Source of the DNA: Escherichia phage phi458
Length of the DNA stretch: 44,850 nt
Direction: 5' to 3' (one strand)
Sequence record: OP434518
This document shows positions 1,452-43,889 of this stretch, one piece after another. Numbering within the stretch: the stretch's first letter is position 1; every line of letters starts with the position of its first letter. Under the pieces are notes generated by a model. The model was not told where the DNA came from. It worked only from the letters and a program-made list of their open reading frames with translations, and did not search any database. The position numbers and the translations under genes are program-made.

Positions 1452-1701
1452 GGTTACCTCTGCTTTTTGAACGCATGTCACGTAACTTCTTAATGTGTTC
1501 TGCCGTTTCGATCTCTTCTGCTATCCGATCTGCATCAGCTTTATTCACAGGTTCAAAGTCATGATTAAAGCGGAACATGCTGGCGATACATGTTCTGCCT
1601 TTTCGGATGTAGTGAACTTTGTTGTGGGTAGAACGCAGGATTTTGCAGGGAGTGCCGTGGTGGTCGACGTACCAGGTGTTAGGCAAAATGATTCTGAACA
1701 T
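1423..1701 (-). CDS. Hypothetical small phage protein
   Basis: 92-aa ORF in the int-proximal accessory region, same strand as int/xis; no motif recognised. Confidence 0.4.
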   Translation of the reverse strand: MFRIILPNTWYVDHHGTPCKILRSTHNKVHYIRKGRTCIASMFRFNHDFEPVNKADADRIAEEIETAEHIKKLRDMRSKSRGNHGIIQPHTR

Positions 1702-1748
1702 TTTTACACCTCAGTTGGACGATGTTGAAATTTGCTGCTTTGAGGCCA

Positions 1749-1967
1749 TCACAGTCCCCATTGTTTGTTCTTAAGTTCGATCTCCTCCTGGCAACTTGCA
1801 CAAGTCCGACAACCCTGAACGGCCAGGCGTCTTCGTTCATCTATCGGATCGCCACACTCACAACAATGAGTGGCAGATATAGCCTGGTGGTTCAGACGAC
1901 GCATTTTTATTGCTGTATTGCGCTGTAATTCTTCGATTTCTGATGCTGAATCAATGATGTCTGCCAT
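1749..1967 (-). CDS. TraR/DksA-family C4 zinc-finger protein
   Basis: 72 aa with CCECGDPIDERRR...CRTCASC, a four-cysteine spacing typical of phage TraR-like proteins. Confidence 0.6.
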   Translation of the reverse strand: MADIIDSASEIEELQRNTAIKMRRLNHQAISATHCCECGDPIDERRRLAVQGCRTCASCQEEIELKNKQWGL

Positions 1968-2281
1968 CTTCCATTAATCTCTGAATTGTTGGTTAATACG
2001 CTTGAGGGTGAATGCGAATAATAAAAAAGGAGCCTGTAGCTCCCTGATGATTTTGCTTTTCATGTTCATCGCTCCTTAAAGATGCCGTTTAACATGCCGA
2101 TCGCCAGGCTTAAATGAGTCGGTGTGAATCCCTCAGCGTTACCGTTTCGCGGTGCTTCTTCAGTACGCTACGGCAAATGTTATTGATGCTCCTGTCTGGT
2201 GACAGCCTTCGGGCTTGTATTATGTATAAGTTCTGATAAAAGCCTCCGATATATTAAATTTAAATAACGAAATTCATCTTC

Positions 2282-2920
2282 TTGATAAGTTGTGATAGCA
2301 TCATTAAAAGTTTCAGTTCGTTGAGCAGGGATTACATGGTAAATCAGCAACAGCAACAGCAACAGATTAACGAAAATCTAAAAATTGAGGCAATCCGTTG
2401 GTATCAGAAGCTGCAGGAGATTACTTATCTTGAAGCAGGACAACACATGCGGGCTTTAAATCAGCTCATGTGGCAAATCCCTAGTTTCGTAATTGCTGTC
2501 AATGGTGGGTTGTGGTATGCAACAACACTGGCAAATGAAAGTTCCCTATGGATTATCTTTGCAGTGTTAGCATTGTTTGATTTCACAACAATGATTACAC
2601 TTTATCGCTTAAGGTCTTTAATTGGTTCGAAAATAGCACTACAAAAAAACATTGAAGACCCTTCAAAAAACTATATTTTAAATGAAATTACTAGAGACGC
2701 TGGATTTAAATTGCCCTCTAGCTATGATAATAAGGAAACTGGTTACATAGTAGTGTCGTGCTGGGCAATAATGCTTATTGTTTGCTTCTTTGTTAATATT
2801 GCTGGGGTATGTCATCCAAACTTGTTTTCAAAAGACATTTCACATAATACATACAAAGCAACAATTAAAAATATTGAGTCAGGATTATTTATCGAAGCAA
2901 AATCAGGATTATCAAAGTGA
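2282..2920 (+). CDS. Hypothetical integral membrane protein with poly-Gln tract (start may be ATG 2336)
   Basis: Three hydrophobic helices (IPSFVIAVNGGLWYATTL, LWIIFAVLALFDFTTMITL, YIVVSCWAIMLIVCFFVNIAGV); visibly AT-rich; stop overlaps the next gene's start. Confidence 0.6.
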   Translation: MISCDSIIKSFSSLSRDYMVNQQQQQQQINENLKIEAIRWYQKLQEITYLEAGQHMRALNQLMWQIPSFVIAVNGGLWYATTLANESSLWIIFAVLALFDFTTMITLYRLRSLIGSKIALQKNIEDPSKNYILNEITRDAGFKLPSSYDNKETGYIVVSCWAIMLIVCFFVNIAGVCHPNLFSKDISHNTYKATIKNIESGLFIEAKSGLSK

Positions 2921-3519
2921 CTTCGTGGAAGTTTTATGACAATAATGCTGATCGCTTATTTGCCGATTATATATCACTTGATTTTTACTCTATCTTTCAG
3001 GATGTTGAAGAGTTTATTTTACAATCTAAGGGTGTCTCTTTGGATGTCGGTTCAGGTTCCGGCCGTGATGCTGCTGCGTTAGATGAATTAGGTTATAAAG
3101 TAATAGCTGTTGAACCAAGTGAAAAGATGCGAAATTTGGCATCTTCATATTATAAATCTAACCATATTATATGGTTAGATGATTCATTGCCTTTTCTTCA
3201 TAGTGTTAAAGCAATGAATCTAAAGTTCGACCTTATTTTAGTCAGTGCTGTATGGATGCATCTTTCAAAAAAAGAGCAAAAAATCTCACTAGAGACGCTA
3301 ACTGATCTTTTAACATTGAATGGGAGAATGATAATTACATTGCGCTTGGGACCTCCCGAACCAGATAGAAACATTAACGTTGTTAATACTGAGGAACTTC
3401 TTGAGTTAGCGTCTCAGTTAGGTCTGAAAACATTGCGAGTTACGTCAATAAATAAAGATAGTTTTCAACGTAACCAGATAACTTGGCAGAAAGTTGTATT
3501 ATCAAAAAATAATGAGTAA
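2917..3519 (+). CDS. Class I SAM-dependent methyltransferase (GTG start, GTGA overlap with upstream ORF)
   Basis: Motif I LDVGSGSGRDA followed by an acidic residue after a beta-strand (VIAVEPS); 200 aa; AT-rich codon usage like the upstream membrane gene. Confidence 0.65.
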   Translation: MTSWKFYDNNADRLFADYISLDFYSIFQDVEEFILQSKGVSLDVGSGSGRDAAALDELGYKVIAVEPSEKMRNLASSYYKSNHIIWLDDSLPFLHSVKAMNLKFDLILVSAVWMHLSKKEQKISLETLTDLLTLNGRMIITLRLGPPEPDRNINVVNTEELLELASQLGLKTLRVTSINKDSFQRNQITWQKVVLSKNNE

Positions 3520-3530
3520 ATAACTTAGTA

Positions 3531-4775
3531 TTATTCGCACAGACCGTAGCGTGAAGAGCAAACCTCTATATCGAGACTTGCTTTTACAAGATCGTAGACC
3601 TTGCCACCGCGCCCTGTTTTTGCCCACTCTACGACTTCATAAACACCCGGAGAATTAAGATCTCCACGAGGACCATAAAATCCTGACCAGTCGATGTGTT
3701 GCACATCAGGTTTTAGCCCAAAAAGTTGAATATTTCGACCAAGTGGCAGATTGAACTGTTTCATCCAGCGTTGGCTTATCTCTCCTACGCTCATCCAGTG
3801 TACCCATCTACTAGCAAGGCGTACCTTCAACTCCCATTGTTTGTGCTTTTTGATGTGCTCTGGCCAGCGCGCAGCCGTCTCTGCAATTTCCTCTTTGTTG
3901 CATAGCACGCAATTCATGCAGCCAACACGAGACGCACCTTGCATATAAAGTGGATTTGGCTTAATTCCGAAATATTTGTGAACTGCGAATACGTCCTCAG
4001 CCGTCCATTTGTGGAGCGGCAGGAAGTTGTAGAGAAAATCGGCGTCGCGCATATCGCGGGAAAACCTCTCATATCCAGCGCGCTTAGAGGACTCATCCGC
4101 GCGAACACCAGACCATTGTACGATAACATCGCCAGCATCAAGGAGCGGCTTTATGGCTGCGTCGAAAGCTATCTGAATTTTCAGTTCGTCTGTACAGAAT
4201 CGGTCGCGCAGCATAGGGAACTTGCCATGCAGAAGGGAGCAATCCAAAAAGCTATTACCGGATGGGTGCATAACGGAAAGCGCAGCATCAAGAGCAGTTT
4301 CGAACTCAATTCCCCAGCGTTCTGCTGTGCGCTTCCAGGCTTGCCCGAATTTGGTGTCAGAACGTGCGAGGGAAGGCATGACTATGCCACGGTATGCTCC
4401 CATGCGGATCATCTGTCGTTTAGACCAGTTTTTTTGCAGATAAATTCGTCGTTTGGCAAAATCTTCTTCAGTGTAAATCCGCTTCACAACCTGCACAGGG
4501 CTACAACCGATCTGCTCATGAATGCTCCTGGCGAATTCGACAGTTAGATTATGCTCATTATCCGTGTCTGCCATAACAGCATGTACCTGTTTGCCGAATA
4601 ATGTGTGCGCCACTGCGAGTGTGGCAGTGCTGTCTTTTCCTGCTGAATAATTCACGATTATCTTATGATCATTAGGGATGCGAAATTCATTTATATATCT
4701 GTTGTAGGACTCTTCTATTTCGCGAATTTTCTTGCTGATGTCTGTTGGGACAATAATTATTGCTGCCTCGTTCAT
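3531..4775 (-). CDS. PAPS-reductase/DndC-family PP-loop ATP pyrophosphatase-like protein
   Basis: PP-loop-like NYSAGKDST near the N-terminus; Cys cluster CMNCVLC; 414 aa; in the pL operon where lambda carries orf61/ea8.5/ea22. Confidence 0.6.
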   Translation of the reverse strand: MNEAAIIIVPTDISKKIREIEESYNRYINEFRIPNDHKIIVNYSAGKDSTATLAVAHTLFGKQVHAVMADTDNEHNLTVEFARSIHEQIGCSPVQVVKRIYTEEDFAKRRIYLQKNWSKRQMIRMGAYRGIVMPSLARSDTKFGQAWKRTAERWGIEFETALDAALSVMHPSGNSFLDCSLLHGKFPMLRDRFCTDELKIQIAFDAAIKPLLDAGDVIVQWSGVRADESSKRAGYERFSRDMRDADFLYNFLPLHKWTAEDVFAVHKYFGIKPNPLYMQGASRVGCMNCVLCNKEEIAETAARWPEHIKKHKQWELKVRLASRWVHWMSVGEISQRWMKQFNLPLGRNIQLFGLKPDVQHIDWSGFYGPRGDLNSPGVYEVVEWAKTGRGGKVYDLVKASLDIEVCSSRYGLCE

Positions 4776-4936
4776 ACCGCCTCCCGTTTATTATTTATCT
4801 CCTCAGCCAGCCGCTGTGCTTTCAGGGGATTTCGGATAACAGAAAGGCCGGGAAATACCCAGCCTCGCTTTGTAACGGAGTAGACGAAAGTGATCGTGCC
4901 TACCCGGATATTATCGTGAGGATGCTTCATCGCCAT
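4772..4936 (-). CDS. Small early-left ORF (lambda orf60a-like), 54 aa
   Basis: Hand translation [13 protein letters not shown]...[11 protein letters not shown]; start overlaps the exo stop and stop overlaps the next start (ATGA); not in the ORF track because it is under 60 aa. Confidence 0.45.
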
Positions 4937-5607
4937 TGCTCCCCAAATGCAAAACCAATTTCAGCCAGTGCCTCGTCCATTTTTTCGATGAACTCCGGCA
5001 CCATCTCGTCAAAACTCGCCATGTAATTTTCATCCCGCTCAACCACGACATAATGCAGGCCTTCACGCTTCATTCGTGGGTCATAGTTGGCAAAGTACCA
5101 GGCATCTTTTCGCGTCACCCACATGCTGTACTGCACCTGGGCCATGTAAGCCGACTTTATGGCCTCGAAACCACCGAGCCGGAATTTCATGAAATCCCGG
5201 GAGGTAAACGGGCATTTCAGTTCAAGGCCGTTGCCGTCACTGCATAAACCATCGGGAGAGCAGGCGGTGCGCATACTTTCGTCGCGATAGATGATCGGGG
5301 ATTCAGTAACATTCACGCCGGAAGTGAACTCAAAGAGGGCTCTGGCGTCGTTCTCGTACTGTTTTCCCCAGGCCAGCGCCTTAGCGTTAACTTCCGGAGC
5401 CACACCGGTGCAAACCTCGGCAAGCAGGGTGTGGAAGTAGGACATTTTCATGTCAGGCCATTTCTTTCCGGAGCGGGGTTTTGCTATCACATTGTGAACT
5501 TCTGAAGCGGTGATGACGCCGAGCCGTAATTTGTGCCACGCATCATCCCCCTGTTCGACAGCTCTCACGTCGATCCCGGTACGCTGCAGGATAATGTCCG
5601 GTGTCAT
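4927..5607 (-). CDS. exo: Lambda exonuclease (Red-alpha)
   Basis: 226 aa, near-identical to lambda Exo as recalled ([26 protein letters not shown]...). Confidence 0.95.
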
Positions 5608-6389
5608 GCAGCCACCTTCTGTTCAGAGGCTTTCTGTTTCAGGAATCCAAGAGCTTTCACTGCTTCGGCCTGTGTCAGTTCTGACGATGCGCGAATGTCG
5701 CGGCGAAATATCTGGGAACAGAGCGGCAATAAGTCGTCATCCCATGTTTTATCCAGGGCGATCAGCAGAGTGTTAATCTCCTGCATGGTTTCATCGTTAA
5801 CCGGAGTGATGTCGCGTTCCGGCTGACGTTCTGCAGTGTATGCGGTATTTTCGACAATGCGCTCGGCTTCATCCTTGTCATAGATACCCGCAAATCCGAA
5901 GGCCAGACGGGCACACTGAATCATGGCTTTATGCCGTAACATCCGTTTGGGATGCGACTGCCACGGTCCGGTGATTTCTCTGCCTTCGCGGGTTTTGAAT
6001 GGTTCGCGGCGGCATTCATCCATCCACTCGGTAACGCAGATCGGATGATTACGGTCCTTGCGGTAAATCCGGCATGTACAGGATTCATTGTCCTGCTCAA
6101 AGTCCATGCCATCAAACTGCTGGTTTTCATTGATGATGCGGGACCAGCCATCAACGCCCACCACCGGAACGATGCCATTCTGCTTATCAGGAAAGGCGTA
6201 AATTTCTTTCGTCCACGGATTAAGGCCGTACTGGTTGGCAACGATCAGTAATGCGATGAACTGCGCATCGCTGGCATCACCTTTAAATGCCGTCTGGCGA
6301 AGAGTGGTGATCAGTTCCTGTGGGTCGACAGAATCCATGCCGACACGTTCAGCCAGCTTCCCAGCCAGCGTTGCGAGTGCTGTACTCAT
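5604..6389 (-). CDS. bet: Red-beta single-strand annealing protein
   Basis: 261 aa matching lambda Bet ([48 protein letters not shown]...). Confidence 0.95.
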
Positions 6390-8136: not shown

Positions 8137-8469
8137 TCAATCGTAATAACCTGGAATTGATTTTCCGCGTTGCTTCTGGCGGCCTGAGCAAGTCACACCC
8201 ATTTCACAGCGTGGCTTGCTGTACCATGTGCGCTGATTCTTGCGCTCAATACGTTGCAGGTTGCTTTCAATCTGTTCGTGGTATTCAGCCAGCACCGTAA
8301 GGTCTATCGGATTCAGTGCGCTTTCTACTCGTGATTTCGGTTTGCGATTCAGCGAGAGAATAGGGCGGTTAACTGGTTTTGCGCTTACCCCAACCAACAG
8401 GGGATTTGCTGCTTTCCATTGAGCCTGTTTCTCTGCGCGACGTTCGCGGCGGCGTGCTTGTGCATCCAT
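8137..8469 (-). CDS. N: N transcription antiterminator
   Basis: Internal start MDAQARRRERRAEKQAQWKAANPLLVGVSAKPVNRPILSL... matches lambda N with its arginine-rich motif; C-terminus diverges. Confidence 0.85.
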   Translation of the reverse strand: MDAQARRRERRAEKQAQWKAANPLLVGVSAKPVNRPILSLNRKPKSRVESALNPIDLTVLAEYHEQIESNLQRIERKNQRTWYSKPRCEMGVTCSGRQKQRGKSIPGYYD

Positions 8470-8579
8470 CTGGATTCTCCTGTCAGTTAGCTTTGAGTAA
8501 CGCGCCGTGATGCTTATCTCCACGGTTGCTGTCTTGCAGCTGCATTTCGCGCTACTCAAAGCCTTCTGCTTTGAATGCT

Positions 8580-8610
8580 GCCCTTCTTCAGGGCTAAATT
8601 TTTAAGAGCC
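8580..8610 (-). promoter_or_regulatory. nutL (boxA GGCTCTTAA, boxB GCCCTGAAGAAGGGC)
   Basis: On the minus strand boxA-like CTCTTAA precedes the lambda-type boxB hairpin, between pL and N. Confidence 0.8.
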
Positions 8611-8642
8611 TCACCTTCAATGGTGGTCAGTGCGTCCTGCTG

Positions 8643-8679
8643 ATGGCTAAATAGTACGATTTGTACTTTATCGAGTCAA
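8643..8679 (-). promoter_or_regulatory. pL-like promoter with overlapping operator palindrome
   Basis: Minus strand TTGACT-N17-TACTAT; palindrome AGTACgatttGTACT (8653-8667) overlaps the -10 and is unlike lambda OL. Confidence 0.6.
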
Positions 8680-8750
8680 TACAAAATGTTCTAAATATAA
8701 TTAGTTTTTTATAACGCTTTGTATTTAATGGGTTTATATTTTGGAAAAAG

Positions 8751-8775
8751 AAAACCCGGCGCTGAGGCCGGGTTT
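8751..8775 (-). terminator. Intrinsic terminator after the 348-aa immunity-region gene
   Basis: Hairpin CCCGGC-gctgag-GCCGGG flanked by an A-run on one side and T-run on the other. Confidence 0.6.
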
Positions 8776-8783
8776 GGAGTGCA

Positions 8784-9830
8784 TCACTCTGGTTCGCTGG
8801 GGAATATATTTATCAATTGCCCTGTTGAAATGTGCCCATTTTCTACAACCTCTAGGTATGAAATTTCAACAGTTGATTCTTTGGCTACAGCATTCAAAAA
8901 CTCAAGAAGCTCATCAGTAGATGTTATGTCGGCTGAGGTTTTTATGGTGAAAGATTCACCATTTGAAACCCTTATGACGTCAATATTTATGTCCTGATTT
9001 GTTTCTCCCGAGCGACGAACGCCCGTGACATAAAAGTTATCTCTTCTAGTTTCCTTTTTTCGATCAATTGATTGTCTTTGGTTTAAGGTATTTAACTGTT
9101 CTCTATTTACCACTCTCTGACCAATTGTTACCCTCTCAACTGACGAGTCTTGAGCAAGCTTTTTAAGCAACTTGCTTTTACCATCCTCGCCGTGAGCCAG
9201 AACCTCTCTGCTAATGTTTGTTTGACCGCTAATCAACAACTTGAGCACATTGTCTTGTGCTTCGTTTACCGCTTTGGTGCTTTTTTCCACCAATTGCACC
9301 TGAGAATCTTGGTCATGTCGCTGTGTTTCGTAGTACTCATTGATCCACTTATAGCCTACCGTGCTGGCAGCTAAGACGATAGCGGCGACGGCGCATAGTG
9401 CTTGCCTTCCTGTCATTTTGCCTATCGCTTGAGTAAACACTGTCACCACTCCGTTTACAATCGGATCTGAGTCACCATCCGCTTGGCTTGAGCCTTCGCT
9501 TATTCGGTAGACAATATCCAGCAAACCTTTCTCTGCATCTTTTAGCTTCTGCCGATTATGAGTGCTGTGACTGACTACCGTAAATGCTTTTTGTATTTCA
9601 TGCGTAAGCTCTGCCATACCAAAAAGCATTGACGCAGTCAATGAAGAATTATATCTATTTGGATCGCCTTTTACATTAATATTGATCTTTGGCCATCCAC
9701 TGAAAACTACGTTAGGGAATGTGAAGTCGCTTGAGTCGATATCCTTCCTTCCGAGCATTTCTGTTACAAAAGATACAAAGTCGTCTTCTGACTTGATAAC
9801 ATATTGCGCAGGTTGATCAATCGCTGACAT
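8784..9830 (-). CDS. Unrecognised 348-aa protein with central transmembrane segment, in the rexAB position
   Basis: Starts 25 bp after the cI stop on the same strand with an AAGGA RBS; hydrophobic segment ALCAVAAIVLAASTVGYKWI mid-protein; charged, coiled-coil-like C-terminal half; no family recognised. Confidence 0.75.
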   Translation of the reverse strand: MSAIDQPAQYVIKSEDDFVSFVTEMLGRKDIDSSDFTFPNVVFSGWPKININVKGDPNRYNSSLTASMLFGMAELTHEIQKAFTVVSHSTHNRQKLKDAEKGLLDIVYRISEGSSQADGDSDPIVNGVVTVFTQAIGKMTGRQALCAVAAIVLAASTVGYKWINEYYETQRHDQDSQVQLVEKSTKAVNEAQDNVLKLLISGQTNISREVLAHGEDGKSKLLKKLAQDSSVERVTIGQRVVNREQLNTLNQRQSIDRKKETRRDNFYVTGVRRSGETNQDINIDVIRVSNGESFTIKTSADITSTDELLEFLNAVAKESTVEISYLEVVENGHISTGQLINIFPSEPE

Positions 9831-9855: not shown

Positions 9856-10515
9856 TCACCCAAACGTCTCTTCTGGCCACTGGCTGGCGATAACTTTCCC
9901 TACAACGGAACAGCTATCATTGCATGGGATCATTGGATATTGCGGGTTTAGTGGTTGTAGGAACACCTGACCGCTATCCCTGATCAGTTTCTTGAAGGTA
10001 AACTCGTCACCACCAAGTCTGGCTATGCAGAAATCACCTGGCTCAACAGCCTGCTCAGGGTCAACGAGAATTAACATCCCGTCAGGAAAGCTTGGCTTGG
10101 ATCCTGTTGGTGCGGTCATGGAATTACCTTCAACTTCAAGCCAAAACGCACAATCACTGGCTTTTTTGGTTGTGCTGACCCATCTCTCCGCATCACCTTT
10201 GGTAAAGGTTCTAAGCTCAGGCGAGAACATCCCGGCCTGAACATGAGAAAAAACAGGGTACTCATATTGTTTTTTAACGGGGGCAGATGAGTATTCGCCA
10301 ACAGGTGAAAATGTACCGTCGTGGTTGAATGAGACGTTATCAATACCAAGGTATTTAAACACCACACCAATCTCGTCAAGAGATGGATGACGAGATCCGC
10401 GCAACCAGTGACCAATTCCACCCTGCGTCATACCAAGCTCTTCAGCCAACTTCTCTTGAGTTATGCCGAGCTCTTTCATTCTGGATCTAGCCAGTTCATA
10501 CCATTTCATTTTCAT
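9856..10515 (-). CDS. cI: CI-type repressor (novel HTH N-domain, lambda-type LexA-like C-domain)
   Basis: C-terminal ~130 aa from [15 protein letters not shown] to the end match lambda CI as recalled; N-terminal [25 protein letters not shown] is different. Start chosen at MKMKWYEL; the ORF extends to 10590. Confidence 0.85.
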
Positions 10516-10626
10516 ATCCTTATTATTACGCTCTGTACTAAAACCATCCATGCACAAGATGTATTTTTTGTTTGCATTCCAAAAGTACATATCGTATTAT
10601 TGTCTCATGGTTACTATGGAGGGCAT
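10516..10626. promoter_or_regulatory. OR/pR/pRM divergent control region
   Basis: Between divergent cI and cro; candidate pR TTGCAT-N17-TATTAT; repeated AGTAC..GTA half-sites resemble the pL palindrome. Confidence 0.55.
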
Positions 10627-41017: not shown

Positions 41018-41293
41018 GTGGCTTCCATTTCCATCAGATGTCCTTCCTGCTCCGCTACTGAAGGCGTGGTGCGTAACGGCAAAAGCACTGCCGGACATCA
41101 GCGCTATCTCTGCTCTCATTGCCGTAAAACATGGCAACTACAGTTCACTTACACCGCCTCTCAACCCGGTACGCACCAGAAAATCATTGATATGGCCATG
41201 AATGGCGTTGGATGTCGCGCCAGTGCACGCATTATGGGCGTTGGCCTCAACACGGTTTTACGTCACTTAAAAAACTCAGGCCGCAGTCGGTAA
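41018..41293 (+). CDS. insA: IS1 InsA
   Basis: 91 aa [43 protein letters not shown]... zinc-finger/HTH. Confidence 0.9.
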
Positions 41294-41715
41294 CCTCGCG
41301 CATACAACCGGGCAGTGATGTGATTGTCTGCGCGGAAATGGACGAACAGTGGGGCTACGTCGGTGCTAAATCACGTCAGCGCTGGCTGTTTTACGCGTAT
41401 GACAGGATACGGAGGACAGTTGTGGCGCACGTTTTCGGTGAACGCACTCTGGCCACACTGGCGCGTCTTCTGAGCCTGCTGTCGGCCTTTGAGGTCGTGG
41501 TATGGATGACGGATGGCTGGCCGCTGTATGAATCCCGCCTGAAGGGAAAGCTGCACGTTATCAGCAAGCGTTACACTCAGCGCATTGAGCGACATAATCT
41601 GAATCTGAGACAACATCTGGCAAGGCTGGGACGGAAGTTACTGTCGTTCTCAAAATCGGTGGAGCTGCATGACAAAGTCATCGGGCATTATCTGAACATA
41701 AAACACTATCAGTAA
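41212..41715 (+). CDS. insB: IS1 InsB frame (transposase made as InsAB' by -1 frameshift)
   Basis: 167-aa frame overlapping the insA 3' end; TTAAAAAAC slippery motif present. Confidence 0.85.
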
Positions 41716-42734: not shown

Positions 42735-43889
42735 CTATTTTTGTTGATGATACCAATGCAACATCATCCGGAGCTTCAATAGAGTTGTACTGTCATCATC
42801 CTCAGAACAAAAATTGTATCGCCCGCCTGAATATTCATTTAACTTGTCCAAGTAAAAGCCACCCATTGGGTCATATCTATCAGAGTGGAGCCAAGTAAAC
42901 ATTTTCTGAAGAACGTAATGCAGGGCATTTTTCGGAAGTGTTGAAATCAACACGCCATGCTTAGTTGCTAAATCCTCAATATTCATTTCCTGAAGATTAT
43001 ATCTAATCTCTACTGCAATTGGATGTAGTTTACTTAAAAATACGTCAGCTTCATCCTTGAGATGTGCCTCTTTAACATTCCCCTCGAACAACTTTATTAA
43101 CTCTTCCACTTCCATTCGGTAATAATCGTTATCACCTCGCACCGCAACTTCTGAAAGAAGCAACTTTAACTCAGCATGAATGTTATCAGTAGACGGTATA
43201 ATCTGTTTGGATAGGGTGCTGTAATGTTTTATACGGATTGCTATTACGGAACCCTTTAGGCTTGTTAGATATTTATACCTATCTTCAATATATGTAATTA
43301 GCTCATCGAATTTAATGCCGAAAATAACATCATCTTTCCCTGGCGTGTTGTTGTAAAGGCTTATAGTGAAATCATTTTCATTGAAAGCATGAAAATGAGG
43401 CCAGCTTGCAAACAGTCGCTCACCATCACTATTTTTAAGATTTGTAGGGTGAGCACCAAAGATAGCTCGAATACTCTTAAAGTATGCGTCATCATCCTCA
43501 TGTGAAAGATAGGGCGTTTTATTCTTAAAGACATTCGTTGATTTCTTGAAAGGCCACCTCGCTAACTTATCATCACTCTCAATGATGCGGTGAAGCTGCT
43601 GCAACGCCTCCACAGCAATATCAATAGATGATATAAGGGAGTAAACCTGCATGGCCTTGACATCAATATCTTCCGACAGCTCAGGGAAGTTCATCAGATT
43701 GCGAACAGAAACGCTTATCCAATCCATGCACGAACAGATAGGGCTGAACTGGTTTTTACCATTTCTGTTTATGAAGTAGCTGTAAGCAAACTCCCCTTCA
43801 TTAACCACATCTCGAAAATCAGTTATTAAAGTATCATCAATAGTTACACCAAAATCTGCCTTGGTCATCTTCATGGAAATCACTTTCAA
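42735..43889 (-). CDS. Unrecognised 384-aa cargo protein near attR
   Basis: Long clean ORF in a visibly AT-rich block between the invertase remnant and attR; no motif recognised. Confidence 0.7.
   Translation of the reverse strand: MKVISMKMTKADFGVTIDDTLITDFRDVVNEGEFAYSYFINRNGKNQFSPICSCMDWISVSVRNLMNFPELSEDIDVKAMQVYSLISSIDIAVEALQQLHRIIESDDKLARWPFKKSTNVFKNKTPYLSHEDDDAYFKSIRAIFGAHPTNLKNSDGERLFASWPHFHAFNENDFTISLYNNTPGKDDVIFGIKFDELITYIEDRYKYLTSLKGSVIAIRIKHYSTLSKQIIPSTDNIHAELKLLLSEVAVRGDNDYYRMEVEELIKLFEGNVKEAHLKDEADVFLSKLHPIAVEIRYNLQEMNIEDLATKHGVLISTLPKNALHYVLQKMFTWLHSDRYDPMGGFYLDKLNEYSGGRYNFCSEDDDSTTLLKLRMMLHWYHQQK

What the first reader, a model, noticed from the sequence alone, without database searches (positions are those of the whole stretch)
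2180..3519. AT-rich convergent block: 3-TM membrane protein translationally coupled to a SAM methyltransferase
The two + strand genes lie between the int-proximal small genes and the leftward pL operon, read against both. They are visibly AT-rich and overlap by GTGA, so they form their own unit. The methyltransferase has a Rossmann motif I (LDVGSGSG) but I see none of the conserved motifs expected of a DNA methyltransferase, so its target may be a small molecule or protein. The pairing with a small membrane protein is unexplained.
Basis: partly seen in the sequence, partly recalled or inferred. Interest (0 to 1): 0.6.

Follow-up and report, generated by a model that had tools for sequence, protein, structure and literature searches.

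The report
Membrane methyltransferase tied to DNA-sulfur systems
The two genes encode the two halves of a membrane-anchored methyltransferase that travels with the neighbouring phage PAPS reductase and, in other bacteria, sits beside the genes that put sulfur into the DNA backbone, a link I found described in no database or paper searched.

Summary
An AT-rich (about 35% GC) + strand pair reads against the int/xis and pL genes: a 194-aa three-helix membrane protein (2336-2920) and a 200-aa class I SAM methyltransferase (2917-3519), overlapping by GTGA.

The unit is larger than reported, and the pairing is explained.
- **Cassette:** compared with lambda-like phages, the inserted block is 2187-4763. 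It holds the pair plus the convergent PAPS reductase (3531-4775).
- **Co-occurrence:** 29 of 5,426 E. coli genomes carry the pair and 29 carry the reductase, adjacent in every record compared. In viral contigs, 18 of 19 with the pair have a PAPS reductase just downstream, convergent.
- **Fusion:** in other Proteobacteria the two proteins form one chain of about 350 aa (over 120 clusters). The window therefore holds a split membrane-anchored methyltransferase.
- **Neighbours:** of 50 metagenome loci with at least 6 kb of flank, 39 carry DNA-phosphorothioation genes (23 dnd, 11 ssp, 5 lone PAPS reductases), often in one operon.
- **Fold:** the catalytic domain resembles small-molecule methyltransferases and lacks DNA-methyltransferase motifs.

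No Pfam, NCBIfam or PADLOC family, and no paper found, describes it. Best reading: an unrecognised accessory of DndC/SspD-type sulfur-insertion enzymes. The substrate is unknown; S-methylation of a sulfur species is my leading guess.

The parts
2187..4763 (.). Three-gene cassette that replaces about 350 bp (part of orf61, plus orf63) of the lambda-type exo-xis region
   Evidence: blastn against phage PhiR47_2: homology covers window 1501-2186 and 4764-6200 only.
2066..2250 (-). Truncated remnant of the exo-xis gene cut by the left cassette junction (RefSeq: 'ZapA', frameshifted pseudogene)
   Evidence: RefSeq annotation of the identical E. coli locus. Homology to lambda-like phages ends at 2186.
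2275..2335 (+). Upstream block conserved among the E. coli, Enterobacter and Serratia copies, with a TTGATA/TTGAGA hexamer and an AGGGA Shine-Dalgarno. Presumed promoter and leader, not demonstrated.
   Evidence: Alignment of upstream regions. The consensus scan found no canonical sigma-70 site here.
2336..2920 (+). Membrane subunit, 194 aa. N-terminal helix with invariant motif YLEAGQHxRxLNQLMWQ(I/V)PS...GGLWY running into TM1, then TM2, an R-x-R loop, TM3 and a variable tail.
   Evidence: No Pfam, NCBIfam, PADLOC or PHROG family.
2345..2365 (+). In-frame (CAGCAA)n repeat encoding the N-terminal poly-Q. Copy number differs between E. coli copies (2.5, 3.5 or 4.5 units).
2917..2920 (+). GTGA overlap of the upstream stop codon and the methyltransferase start codon (translational coupling)
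   Evidence: Read. A 4-nt overlap is also seen in homologous loci.
2917..3519 (+). Catalytic subunit, 200 aa, class I SAM-dependent methyltransferase. Carries motif I LDVGSGSGRD, then AVEPS, WLDDSLP, SAVWMH, TLRLGP and a C-terminal D..R....W; residues of each block are invariant across the fused family.
3520..3530 (.). 11-bp gap between the convergent stop codons. There is no room for a terminator, so transcripts from either side must run antisense into the other.
   Evidence: Coordinates. Gaps of 11-30 bp in the Serratia, Enterobacter and most viral-contig copies.
3531..4775 (-). PAPS-reductase-family PP-loop protein, 414 aa, first gene of the pL-side operon in this block. PP-loop SAGKDS near aa 43 and a C-terminal GCMNCVLC cysteine cluster. 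Distant relative of SspD, BrxP and DndC.
   Evidence: Pfam PF01507 6.8e-21. PADLOC SspD 6e-19, BrxP 3.9e-16, DndC 5.8e-9. PHROG 424. BLASTP to a genuine SspD. Found in 29 E. coli genomes, as is the pair.

Best explanation
**What it is.** The two + strand genes encode a split, membrane-anchored class I SAM-dependent methyltransferase. The 194-aa protein is the three-helix membrane module. The 200-aa protein is the catalytic module that docks on it. Elsewhere the two are one polypeptide. Together with the convergent PAPS reductase (3531-4775) they form one three-gene cassette (2187-4763) inserted in the exo-xis region of this lambdoid prophage.

**What it belongs to.** The methyltransferase is a member of an unnamed family that accompanies PP-loop sulfur-insertion enzymes of the DndC/SspD/PAPS-reductase type. 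In bacteria it sits beside dnd and ssp DNA-phosphorothioation clusters. In phages it sits beside lone PAPS reductases, a gene class reported as an anti-Dnd counter-defence.

**How it probably works (inferred, not shown).** The enzyme is held at the inner membrane. It transfers a methyl group from SAM to a small nucleophile linked to the sulfur chemistry of its partner. The likeliest target is a sulfur species: sulfide or persulfide, a thiol or thiophosphate by-product, or the phosphorothioate sulfur itself. It does not methylate a DNA base. In the prophage the pair would be made from its own promoter while pL is repressed. The reductase would be made from pL after induction or infection.
For: **Shown.**
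1. Cassette borders: 2187-4763 is the block inserted relative to phage PhiR47_2.
2. Co-occurrence in E. coli: the pair is in 29 of 5,426 genomes and this PAPS reductase is in 29 of 5,426. Coordinates abut in the records compared.
3. In viral contigs, 18 of 19 loci with the pair have a PAPS reductase immediately downstream and convergent. Reductase identity falls from 100% to 32% as the pair falls to about 40%. The same trio sits in Serratia and Enterobacter prophages with different integrases and recombination genes. A Salmonella island copy keeps a reductase remnant.
4. Fusion: 12 proteins of 331-391 aa read directly, and more than 120 clusters at E below 1e-127, carry the membrane module followed by the methyltransferase. 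The AlphaFold model of one has pLDDT 91.
5. All 17 genome loci found with the membrane module alone have a methyltransferase homologue directly downstream.
6. Phosphorothioation link: dndBCDE(A) lies next to the fused gene in Sphingobium and Mesorhizobium. dnd genes lie within 8 kb in 13 of the 22 non-enterobacterial loci held at that point, namely L013, L021-L026, L028-L031, L039 and L040. sspB, sspC and sspD lie divergent from the split pair in Methylotenera, with PADLOC E-values of 2.5e-107, 0 and 1.3e-116.
7. Census: of 50 metagenome loci with at least 6 kb of flank, 23 have dnd genes, 11 have ssp genes and 5 have a lone PAPS reductase. Several are co-operonic. In L053 and L097 the order is sspB-C-D then the fusion, with 12-bp gaps.
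8. The catalytic domain's best solved-structure matches are small-molecule methyltransferases: toxoflavin N-MT, phosphoethanolamine MT, TehB-like, halide and arsenite MTs. There is no DNA-methyltransferase motif.

**From the literature.**
- Phage PAPS reductases are DndC/SspD homologues proposed as anti-defence genes (PMC13551039).
- A phage PAPS domain fused to a Dam methylase gave escape from a host Dnd system (bioRxiv 10.1101/2021.05.05.442762).
Against: - No experiment bears on this family, and the substrate is unknown.
- The pair occurs without any PAPS reductase within 7 kb in Klebsiella-type prophages, where it sits in the nin region. It also occurs without phosphorothioation genes in some loci: L018-L020, L027 and 6 of 50 metagenome loci. 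The link is therefore not obligatory.
- In the prophage the pair and the reductase are convergent with no terminator between them, and their GC content differs (35% against about 49%). This could mean opposed rather than joint expression, and separate origins.
- With three membrane helices, the conserved N-terminal helix and the catalytic domain should lie on opposite faces. K+R counts place the N-terminus and the TM2-TM3 loop on the positive (cytoplasmic) side. That would put a SAM-dependent domain outside the cell, so the membrane model is incomplete.
- Dnd and Ssp clusters lie in defence islands, so part of the association could be island clustering.
- S-methylation is a chemical guess. The fold matches do not separate N-, O- and S-methylation.
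Confidence: 0.68

Rival explanations
1. The pair is a stand-alone, lysogen-expressed anti-phage module of the abortive-infection or exclusion type. The three-helix protein is a membrane-damaging effector or an injection blocker. The methyltransferase domain is its sensor or regulator. Proximity to phosphorothioation genes reflects defence-island and phage hot-spot clustering.
For: - It is an AT-rich gene block on the opposite strand at two different prophage hot spots: the exo-xis region here, and the nin region in Klebsiella-type prophages next to NACHT and HATPase_c_3 genes.
- The Salmonella copy lies beside AbiEii and an SBD-HNH gene. A Vibrio relative of the methyltransferase lies beside BrxR and Wadjet genes.
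- The membrane module also occurs fused to a DEDDh exonuclease and to other domains. This modularity is typical of conflict systems.
Against: - Island clustering gives variable neighbours. It does not give 78% co-occurrence with one biochemical system, co-operonic placement after sspD or dndE, or 18 of 19 adjacency to a PAPS reductase in phages.
- The catalytic residues are strictly conserved. That argues for an enzyme rather than a degenerate sensor.
- No PADLOC model matches apart from a generic Rossmann hit.
Confidence: 0.15
2. It is a small-molecule detoxification or resistance enzyme carried as cargo, for example TehB/TPMT-like methylation of tellurite, selenite or xenobiotic thiols, with no functional tie to the reductase.
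For: Weak TehB hits in Pfam and NCBIfam. Structural neighbours include TehB-like, halide and arsenite methyltransferases.
Against: - All TehB and UbiG equivalog scores fall far below their cut-offs: 18-27 bits against 103-303.
- This reading does not explain the conserved membrane partner or the tight linkage to dnd, ssp and PAPS-reductase genes.
Confidence: 0.07
3. It is a lysogenic-conversion enzyme that methylates an envelope component, such as a lipid headgroup, lipid A or O-antigen intermediate, to change the cell surface and block superinfection.
For: It is membrane-anchored and lies near int, where serotype-converting phages carry such genes (own knowledge). Phosphoethanolamine methyltransferases are among the best fold matches.
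Against: - No glycosyltransferase, flippase or other envelope gene accompanies it in any locus examined.
- The family's conserved neighbours are DNA-modification genes.
- Fold matches are at 15-24% identity and are not specific.
Confidence: 0.05
4. It is an orphan DNA methyltransferase (MADS mad2-like) that protects phage or host DNA from restriction.
For: PADLOC mad2 hit at 7.4e-15 for the window protein and 9e-18 for a fused relative. In MADS, mad2 is the predicted DNA methylase.
Against: - The hit covers only the Rossmann core (profile positions 290-446 of 492).
- The MADS authors built their profile HMMs from HHpred alignments against PDB, so if PADLOC's mad2 model derives from them it is probably generic.
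- There is no (D/N/S)PP(Y/F/W) motif and no target-recognition domain. No DNA methyltransferase appears in the Pfam list or among the 50 best fold matches shown.
- A membrane anchor is not expected for a DNA base methylase.
- No other mad gene was seen near the pair among the ORFs and annotation checked.
Confidence: 0.03

Closest known systems
Phage-encoded PAPS reductases (DndC/SspD homologues) used against Dnd defence, e.g. the PAPS-Dam fusion p0018 of Vibrio crassostreae podoviruses (Piel et al.; bioRxiv 10.1101/2021.05.05.442762)
   Same: A phage carries a PAPS-reductase-fold gene in a variable early region, physically linked to a SAM-dependent methyltransferase.
   Different: There the methyltransferase is a Dam-type DNA adenine methylase fused to the PAPS domain. 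Here it is a small-molecule-type class I enzyme with its own membrane subunit, encoded on the opposite strand. The reductase is a separate 414-aa protein.
Dnd (dndABCDE) and Ssp (sspABCD) DNA phosphorothioation modules, and BREX type 4 BrxP
   Same: The family to which the window pair belongs lies next to, and often in the same operon as, these genes. The window's own neighbour has the same PP-loop fold as DndC, SspD and BrxP.
   Different: Around the pair the window shows no DndD/SspC-type ATPase, no DndE or SspB, and no cysteine desulfurase. tblastn with Dnd proteins from L039/L040 found only the PAPS reductase; Ssp proteins were not searched against the window. It is therefore not a Dnd or Ssp system. 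The membrane methyltransferase is not among the components the papers read here list for those systems.
TIGR04096 'DNA phosphorothioation-associated putative methyltransferase'
   Same: This is another uncharacterised SAM-methyltransferase family defined by its position next to dnd genes. It co-occurs with the membrane methyltransferase in many dnd loci.
   Different: It is a different protein: a core of about 480 aa in proteins of up to 857 aa, with no membrane module. The window methyltransferase does not match TIGR04096 at E up to 0.1. It is absent from the window.
TehB and thiopurine/thiol methyltransferases, including the membrane-anchored human thiol methyltransferases TMT1A/B (METTL7A/B), which methylate hydrogen sulfide and alkyl thiols (own knowledge)
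   Same: Class I Methyltransf_11-type fold. Weak TehB and TPMT profile hits. The analogy is a membrane-tethered enzyme acting on a small sulfur nucleophile.
   Different: No sequence-level membership: scores are far below cut-offs. The anchor here is a conserved three-helix module with its own invariant motif, not a simple hairpin. The substrate is untested.
Lambda exo-xis region accessory genes (orf61, orf63, ea22 and others)
   Same: Same genomic slot between xis and exo, which is known to be variable.
   Different: The cassette replaces orf61/orf63 with three unrelated genes, two of them on the opposite strand.

Membership tests
Class I SAM-dependent methyltransferase (Pfam Methyltransf_11/25/23/12) | Profile score above the curated gathering threshold | tested here: met
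   Scores of 38.9, 36.5, 33.2 and 33.6 bits against cut-offs of 21.2, 27, 27 and 30.
Class I SAM-dependent methyltransferase (Pfam Methyltransf_11/25/23/12) | Glycine-rich motif I, and an acidic residue at the end of strand 2 for SAM binding | tested here: met
   LDVGSGSGRD at aa 42-51 and AVEPS at aa 63-67. The G-x-G..RD residues of motif I are invariant and the P-S of AVEPS nearly invariant across 57 fused relatives.
DNA N6-adenine / N4-cytosine methyltransferase | Catalytic (D/N/S)PP(Y/F/W) motif after strand 4 | tested here: not met
   The equivalent position reads SAVWMH. The only PP in the protein is LGPPEP, after strand 5.
DNA N6-adenine / N4-cytosine methyltransferase | Target-recognition domain, or similarity to DNA methyltransferase families or structures | tested here: not met
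   The 200-aa protein is a bare Rossmann domain. No DNA methyltransferase family appears in Pfam, NCBIfam or PHROG output, or among the 50 best Foldseek PDB matches shown.
TehB tellurite-resistance methyltransferase | NCBIfam equivalog score above cut-off | tested here: not met
   Scores of 24.1, 18.9 and 18.4 bits against cut-offs of 303, 218 and 219.5. Pfam TehB scores 23 against 20.4, but over only 85 residues of the Rossmann core.
MADS defence system (mad2 methylase) | Full-length match to mad2 | tested here: not met
   The match covers profile positions 290-446 of 492 only. The MADS authors built their profiles from HHpred/PDB alignments, so the PADLOC model may be generic.
MADS defence system (mad2 methylase) | Eight-gene mad operon around it | tested here: not met
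   The neighbours are prophage genes and a PAPS reductase. PADLOC gave no other mad hit for the three cassette proteins.
Dnd or Ssp DNA phosphorothioation system | PP-loop PAPS-reductase-fold sulfurtransferase (DndC or SspD) | tested here: inconclusive
   A PAPS_reduct protein is present. It matches SspD (6e-19), BrxP (3.9e-16) and DndC (5.8e-9) only over part of its length, and is 24% identical to a genuine SspD. It is a distant relative, not a member.
Dnd or Ssp DNA phosphorothioation system | Partner ATPase and DNA-binding or nicking proteins (DndD+DndE, or SspB+SspC) | tested here: not met
   tblastn of DndA-E against the whole window found only the reductase. Ssp proteins were not searched against the window. 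The flanking genes are DUF1317, exo, bet and gam.
Unnamed family: membrane-anchored methyltransferase associated with phosphorothioation genes (defined here) | Membrane module with the motif R-x-L-N-Q-x-M-W-Q-x-P ... G-G-L-W and R-x-R after TM2 | tested here: met
   Window residues R39, N42, M45, W46, Q47, P49, G57, G58, L59, W60, R91 and R93. The corresponding positions are invariant in 57 fused relatives.
Unnamed family: membrane-anchored methyltransferase associated with phosphorothioation genes (defined here) | Catalytic module with GxGxGRD, SAVWMH, (T)LRxGP and C-terminal D..R....W, encoded directly downstream of or fused to the membrane module | tested here: met
   All motifs are present in 2917-3519. 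Adjacency holds in 17 of 17 genome loci. Fusions.
Unnamed family: membrane-anchored methyltransferase associated with phosphorothioation genes (defined here) | A DndC/SspD/PAPS-reductase-fold gene nearby | tested here: met
   The reductase stop codon lies 11 bp from the methyltransferase stop codon. The same arrangement holds in 18 of 19 viral contigs.
Toxin-antitoxin / abortive-infection pair | One product toxic, the other neutralising; phage-triggered growth arrest | not testable with these tools
   Needs expression and infection experiments.

The most novel reading that the evidence does not exclude
The membrane-anchored methyltransferase performs a SAM-dependent step in phosphorothioate biology that has not been seen before. 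One form of this is S-methylation of the phosphorothioate sulfur in DNA, which would write a second mark or erase and destabilise the first. The other is S-methylation of the reactive sulfur that DndC/SspD-type enzymes handle. If so, phages carry a minimal two-enzyme kit (PAPS reductase plus methyltransferase) to manipulate sulfur-based host immunity. A side possibility raised by the charge distribution is that the catalytic domain faces the periplasm, which would be unprecedented for a SAM enzyme.
Probability: 0.22. Interest if true: 0.85.

Novelty: new variant of a known kind. Interest (0 to 1): 0.7.

Why it matters
DNA phosphorothioation is the only known natural modification of the DNA backbone. 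Its enzymology and its accessory and restriction partners are still being worked out.

A conserved enzyme that sits beside dnd and ssp clusters, and beside lone phage PAPS reductases, points to a missing biochemical step or safeguard tied to the sulfur-insertion enzyme they share. The papers I read on these neighbourhoods either do not mention it or dismiss adjacent methyltransferases as probably independent.

The prophage version is a three-gene cassette in an E. coli lambdoid phage. That makes it about the most tractable setting possible for testing what phage PAPS reductases do and why a methyltransferase accompanies them.

The work also gives a defining motif for an unannotated membrane domain, and shows that 'class I SAM-dependent methyltransferase' plus 'hypothetical protein' in RefSeq hides a two-subunit enzyme.

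Tried and rejected
- **Close relatives in sequenced phages.** Megablast of the block found only the 87-bp left flank. tblastn of the methyltransferase found 3 weak records. This reductase type is rare there too.
- **Known defence system.** PADLOC gave only the mad2 Rossmann hit. I rejected it as generic after reading how the MADS profiles were built.
- **Housekeeping family.** All NCBIfam equivalogs are far below cut-off. PDB sequence search gave only three weak structural-genomics hits.
- **Promoter and terminator.** The consensus scan found no promoter upstream of 2336 and no terminator after 3519. An alignment of upstream regions shows a conserved block but no clear -10. Expression in the lysogen therefore remains an inference.
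- **Fold search of the membrane subunit.** The afdb50 library was not available. I ran no further search on PDB for a pLDDT-74 helical bundle.
- **Exonuclease fusion context.** The only contig is 1.9 kb and shows just a HIT-family neighbour.
- **Literature.** Eight searches and eight papers turned up no description of this methyltransferase or its membrane partner. The library does not hold all journals, so absence is not proof.
- **Salmonella copy as a non-phage context.** Rejected, because it keeps a PAPS-reductase remnant and so derives from the phage cassette.
- **Subunit complex.** I could not model the complex of the two window proteins, or get model coordinates to inspect the active site or the interface.
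Full report
**1. What is in the sequence**

The window is a lambdoid prophage integrated at the argU tRNA site of E. coli. On the - strand it carries int (61-1224), small xis-side genes, a TraR-like gene (1749-1967), then exo, bet, gam and kil further right. Between them lie two + strand ORFs.

The first has a mechanical start at TTG 2282. RefSeq and the N-termini of homologues support ATG 2336, which gives 194 aa ending at 2920. The second starts at GTG 2917 and ends at 3519, giving 200 aa. Stop and start overlap as GTGA. A 4-nt overlap is also present in the Serratia, Enterobacter and Salmonella copies.

GC falls to 32-38% across 2250-3600, against 44-55% on either side.

**2. What the two proteins are**

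The 200-aa protein is a class I SAM-dependent methyltransferase. Four generic Pfam families score above their cut-offs. It reaches no curated equivalog: TehB, UbiG, CpaM and the rest all fall far below threshold. It has no close solved relative. It also lacks the (D/N/S)PP(Y/F/W) motif and any target-recognition domain of DNA methyltransferases.

The 194-aa protein matches no Pfam, NCBIfam, PADLOC or PHROG family. Its family is small: 62 clusters in the 90% database and 237 representatives at E up to 0.001 among 1.84 billion. It has three hydrophobic helices. An invariant polar and aromatic motif, YLEAGQHxRxLNQLMWQ(I/V)PS...GGLWY, sits where a long N-terminal helix enters the first of them, and R-x-R follows the second.

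**3. Why they are paired**

Among the distant relatives of the membrane protein are many proteins of 331-391 aa. In these the same three-helix module is followed by a methyltransferase domain carrying the motifs of the window enzyme: GxGxGRD, AVEPS, SAVWMH, TLRxGP and a C-terminal D..R....W.

A search with these fusions returned more than 120 clusters at E below 1e-127. They come from Mesorhizobium, Sphingobium, Sphingomonas, Paracoccaceae, Nostoc and metagenomes.

Conversely, all 17 genome loci retrieved with the membrane module alone have a methyltransferase homologue directly downstream on the same strand.

The window pair is therefore the split form of a single membrane-anchored enzyme. 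That the two proteins form a complex is inferred from this, not shown.

**4. The unit is three genes, not two**

- Against the lambda-like phage PhiR47_2, homology covers window 1501-2186 and 4764-6200. The 2,577 bp in between replace 350 bp of the exo-xis region, namely part of orf61 plus orf63.
- That block holds the pair and the convergent PAPS-reductase-family gene (3531-4775, - strand). The two stop codons are 11 bp apart.
- In 5,426 complete E. coli genomes the pair occurs in 29 and this reductase in 29. Coordinates abut in the records compared.
- In IMG/VR, 18 of 19 contigs with the pair carry a PAPS reductase immediately downstream and convergent. Reductase identity ranges from 100% down to 32% as the pair diverges to about 40%.
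- The trio recurs in Serratia and Enterobacter prophages that have different integrases and different recombination modules. A Salmonella island copy keeps a reductase fragment.

The exception is a group of Klebsiella-type prophages. There the pair sits in the nin region, again on the opposite strand, with no reductase within 7 kb.

**5. The link to DNA phosphorothioation**

- The fused gene lies divergent from dndB-C-D-E-(A) in Sphingobium and Mesorhizobium, next to an HNH gene.
- tblastn with those Dnd proteins found dnd genes within 8 kb in 13 of the 22 non-enterobacterial loci then in hand. These include a Moraxellaceae locus where dndBCDE runs straight into the split pair, and a Nostoc locus where the fusion is followed by dndBCDEA.
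- In Methylotenera the split pair is divergent from sspB, sspC and sspD, with PADLOC E-values of 2.5e-107, 0 and 1.3e-116. The layout of a roughly 300-aa ORF and a roughly 1,140-aa ORF upstream of the pair recurs in Chitinimonas. It recurs again in a metagenome contig that carries a DUF4007 gene next to a 1,134-aa gene.
- A scan of metagenome contigs with the fusion profile gave 80 loci. Of the 50 with at least 6 kb of flank, 23 carry dnd genes and 11 carry ssp genes. Three carry the phage-type reductase and 2 another PAPS-like gene. Five carry only the recurrent HNH or TIGR04096 partners, and 6 carry none of these.
- In L053 and L097 the order is sspB-C-D then the fusion, on one strand with 12-bp gaps. 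A convergent trio of PLD-like, MzaB-like and helicase genes follows.

For scale, 6.3% of gut-microbiome genomes carry dnd or ssp genes (PMC12914056 abstract). A random gene would lie within 10 kb of them far less than once in a thousand times (my estimate). Loose defence-island clustering does not produce this pattern.

The window's own reductase is a distant member of the same PP-loop clade, with PADLOC hits to SspD (6e-19), BrxP (3.9e-16) and DndC (5.8e-9). It is 24% identical to a genuine SspD across the conserved blocks.

**6. What is known**

Phage PAPS reductases have been noted as DndC/SspD homologues that cluster in variable phage regions and are candidate anti-defence genes (PMC13551039). 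In Vibrio crassostreae podoviruses, a gene pair that includes a PAPS domain fused to a Dam methylase gave escape from the host Dnd system (bioRxiv 10.1101/2021.05.05.442762).

A comprehensive survey of Dnd neighbourhoods lists nucleases and cytosine methylases but not this enzyme (PMC10853773). A 2026 survey of dndC and sspD neighbourhoods remarks only that adjacent methyltransferases 'may function independently' (PMC12914056).

NCBIfam does hold a 'DNA phosphorothioation-associated putative methyltransferase' (TIGR04096). That is a different, larger protein. It often co-occurs with the membrane methyltransferase in dnd loci and does not match the window enzyme.

I found no family model and no paper for the membrane methyltransferase itself. 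The literature library is incomplete, so this is absence of evidence.

**7. How it probably works**

The following points are shown:
- The gene structure, the cassette borders and the fusions.
- The co-localisation statistics.
- The conservation of a complete SAM-binding site and of further invariant residues. In fusion numbering these are W263, H265, R293, D330, R334 and W339, and all are matched in the window protein.
- Fold similarity to small-molecule methyltransferases at 15-24% identity: toxoflavin N-MT, phosphoethanolamine MT, TehB-like, cg3271, halide and arsenite MTs.

The following points are inferred:
- The enzyme sits at the inner membrane.
- It works on something connected with the PP-loop sulfurtransferase next to it, because that enzyme is the only element shared by the dnd, ssp and lone-reductase contexts.
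- The methyl acceptor is a sulfur nucleophile.

Candidate acceptors are sulfide or persulfide released by the pathway, thiophosphate or AMPS-type by-products, or the phosphorothioate sulfur itself. Two observations fit the by-product idea. First, HIT-family genes appear beside two family members: an HNH-HIT fusion in Mesorhizobium, and a HIT gene next to an exonuclease fused to the membrane module. HIT enzymes are known to desulfurise nucleoside phosphorothioates (own knowledge). Second, membrane-anchored thiol methyltransferases exist in animals (own knowledge). Both are analogies, not tests.

In the prophage, the pair would be expressed from its own upstream region while pL is off, and the reductase from pL. 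With 11 bp between the stop codons and no terminator, each transcript must run antisense into the other. I do not know whether this gives sequential or mutually exclusive expression.

**8. What does not fit**

- The pair can occur without a reductase or phosphorothioation genes.
- GC content differs between the pair (35%) and the reductase (about 49%).
- Three membrane helices put the N-terminal motif and the catalytic domain on opposite faces. Charge counts place the N-terminus and the TM2-TM3 loop on the positive side: 5.4 K+R in that loop against 0.7 in the TM1-TM2 loop. A SAM enzyme cannot plausibly work in the periplasm. Either the positive-inside rule is broken here or one helix does not span the membrane.
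- The membrane module is also found fused to a DEDDh exonuclease and to unknown domains. It is therefore a reusable module, not just this enzyme's anchor.

**9. Verdict**

The interpretation needs two changes. The membrane protein is the enzyme's own anchor subunit. The functional unit includes the PAPS reductase and belongs to the wider biology of DNA phosphorothioation.

I rate it a new variant of a known kind: a phage PAPS-reductase module, and more widely dnd/ssp modules, with a conserved and so far unrecognised membrane methyltransferase. The genomic link is strong. The mechanism is a hypothesis.

Noticed in passing
window 2345-2365: In-frame (CAGCAA)n repeat at the start of the membrane protein (poly-Q). 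E. coli and viral-contig copies differ only here, with 2.5, 3.5 or 4.5 units, which explains the 1345, 1351 and 1357 bp length classes.
   Followed up: partly
window 8784-9830 (- strand): A 348-aa ORF with no Pfam match lies between the cI-like repressor (9856-10590) and N (8137-8559). This is the slot where lambda has rexAB. The stretch is AT-rich (37-40% GC in 8550-9150). It is a candidate lysogen-expressed gene of unknown function.
   Followed up: partly
window 41212-41715 and 42735-43889: An IS1 transposase ORF lies near the right end of the window. A 384-aa - strand ORF with no Pfam match lies beyond it.
   Followed up: no
P0229 / L041:354-1358; P0262; P0233: The three-helix membrane module also occurs fused to a DEDDh (RNase T-type) exonuclease, with a HIT-family gene next door. 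It further occurs fused to an N-terminal domain of about 250 aa and to a C-terminal domain, neither with a Pfam match. It is a reusable membrane module.
   Followed up: partly
L013:2535-6727; L039:5992-7008; L040:8212-9264; many of L042-L121: In dnd loci the membrane methyltransferase is repeatedly accompanied by an HNH protein (once fused to a HIT domain). It is also accompanied by a large protein matching TIGR04096, 'DNA phosphorothioation-associated putative methyltransferase' (5.9e-161). Neither partner is present in the window.
   Followed up: partly
A1 / A3 alignments (membrane module): Topology puzzle. Charge counts put the N-terminal helix and the TM2-TM3 loop on the cytoplasmic side. 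With three spans, that places the SAM-dependent domain of the fused proteins outside the cell.
   Followed up: partly
L032-L037 (Klebsiella aerogenes-type prophages): The pair sits in the nin region between replication gene P and the Q antiterminator, divergent from an HTH_73 gene. In L032-L034 it lies next to NACHT and HATPase_c_3 genes. No PAPS reductase lies within 7 kb.
   Followed up: partly
L009-L012 (Salmonella enterica): A copy of the pair with a PAPS-reductase C-terminal remnant lies in an island with AbiEii/DUF6088, a ScoMcrA-type sulfur-binding-domain HNH nuclease (a phosphorothioate-sensing type) and a 1,686-aa DUF87 protein.
   Followed up: no
L053:11043-15328; L097:9295-13769; L049:5351-8143: Downstream of sspBCD plus the fusion lies a convergent trio (a pair in L049): a PLD-like protein (DrmC/ZacB-like), an MzaB-like protein and an SF2 helicase (PbeA-like). 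This may be an undescribed restriction partner of Ssp modification genes.
   Followed up: no
L028 (Nostoc sp. CHAB 5715): The fusion plus dndBCDEA locus has 51-54% GC, well above typical Nostoc genomes (own knowledge). This suggests recent transfer from Proteobacteria.
   Followed up: no
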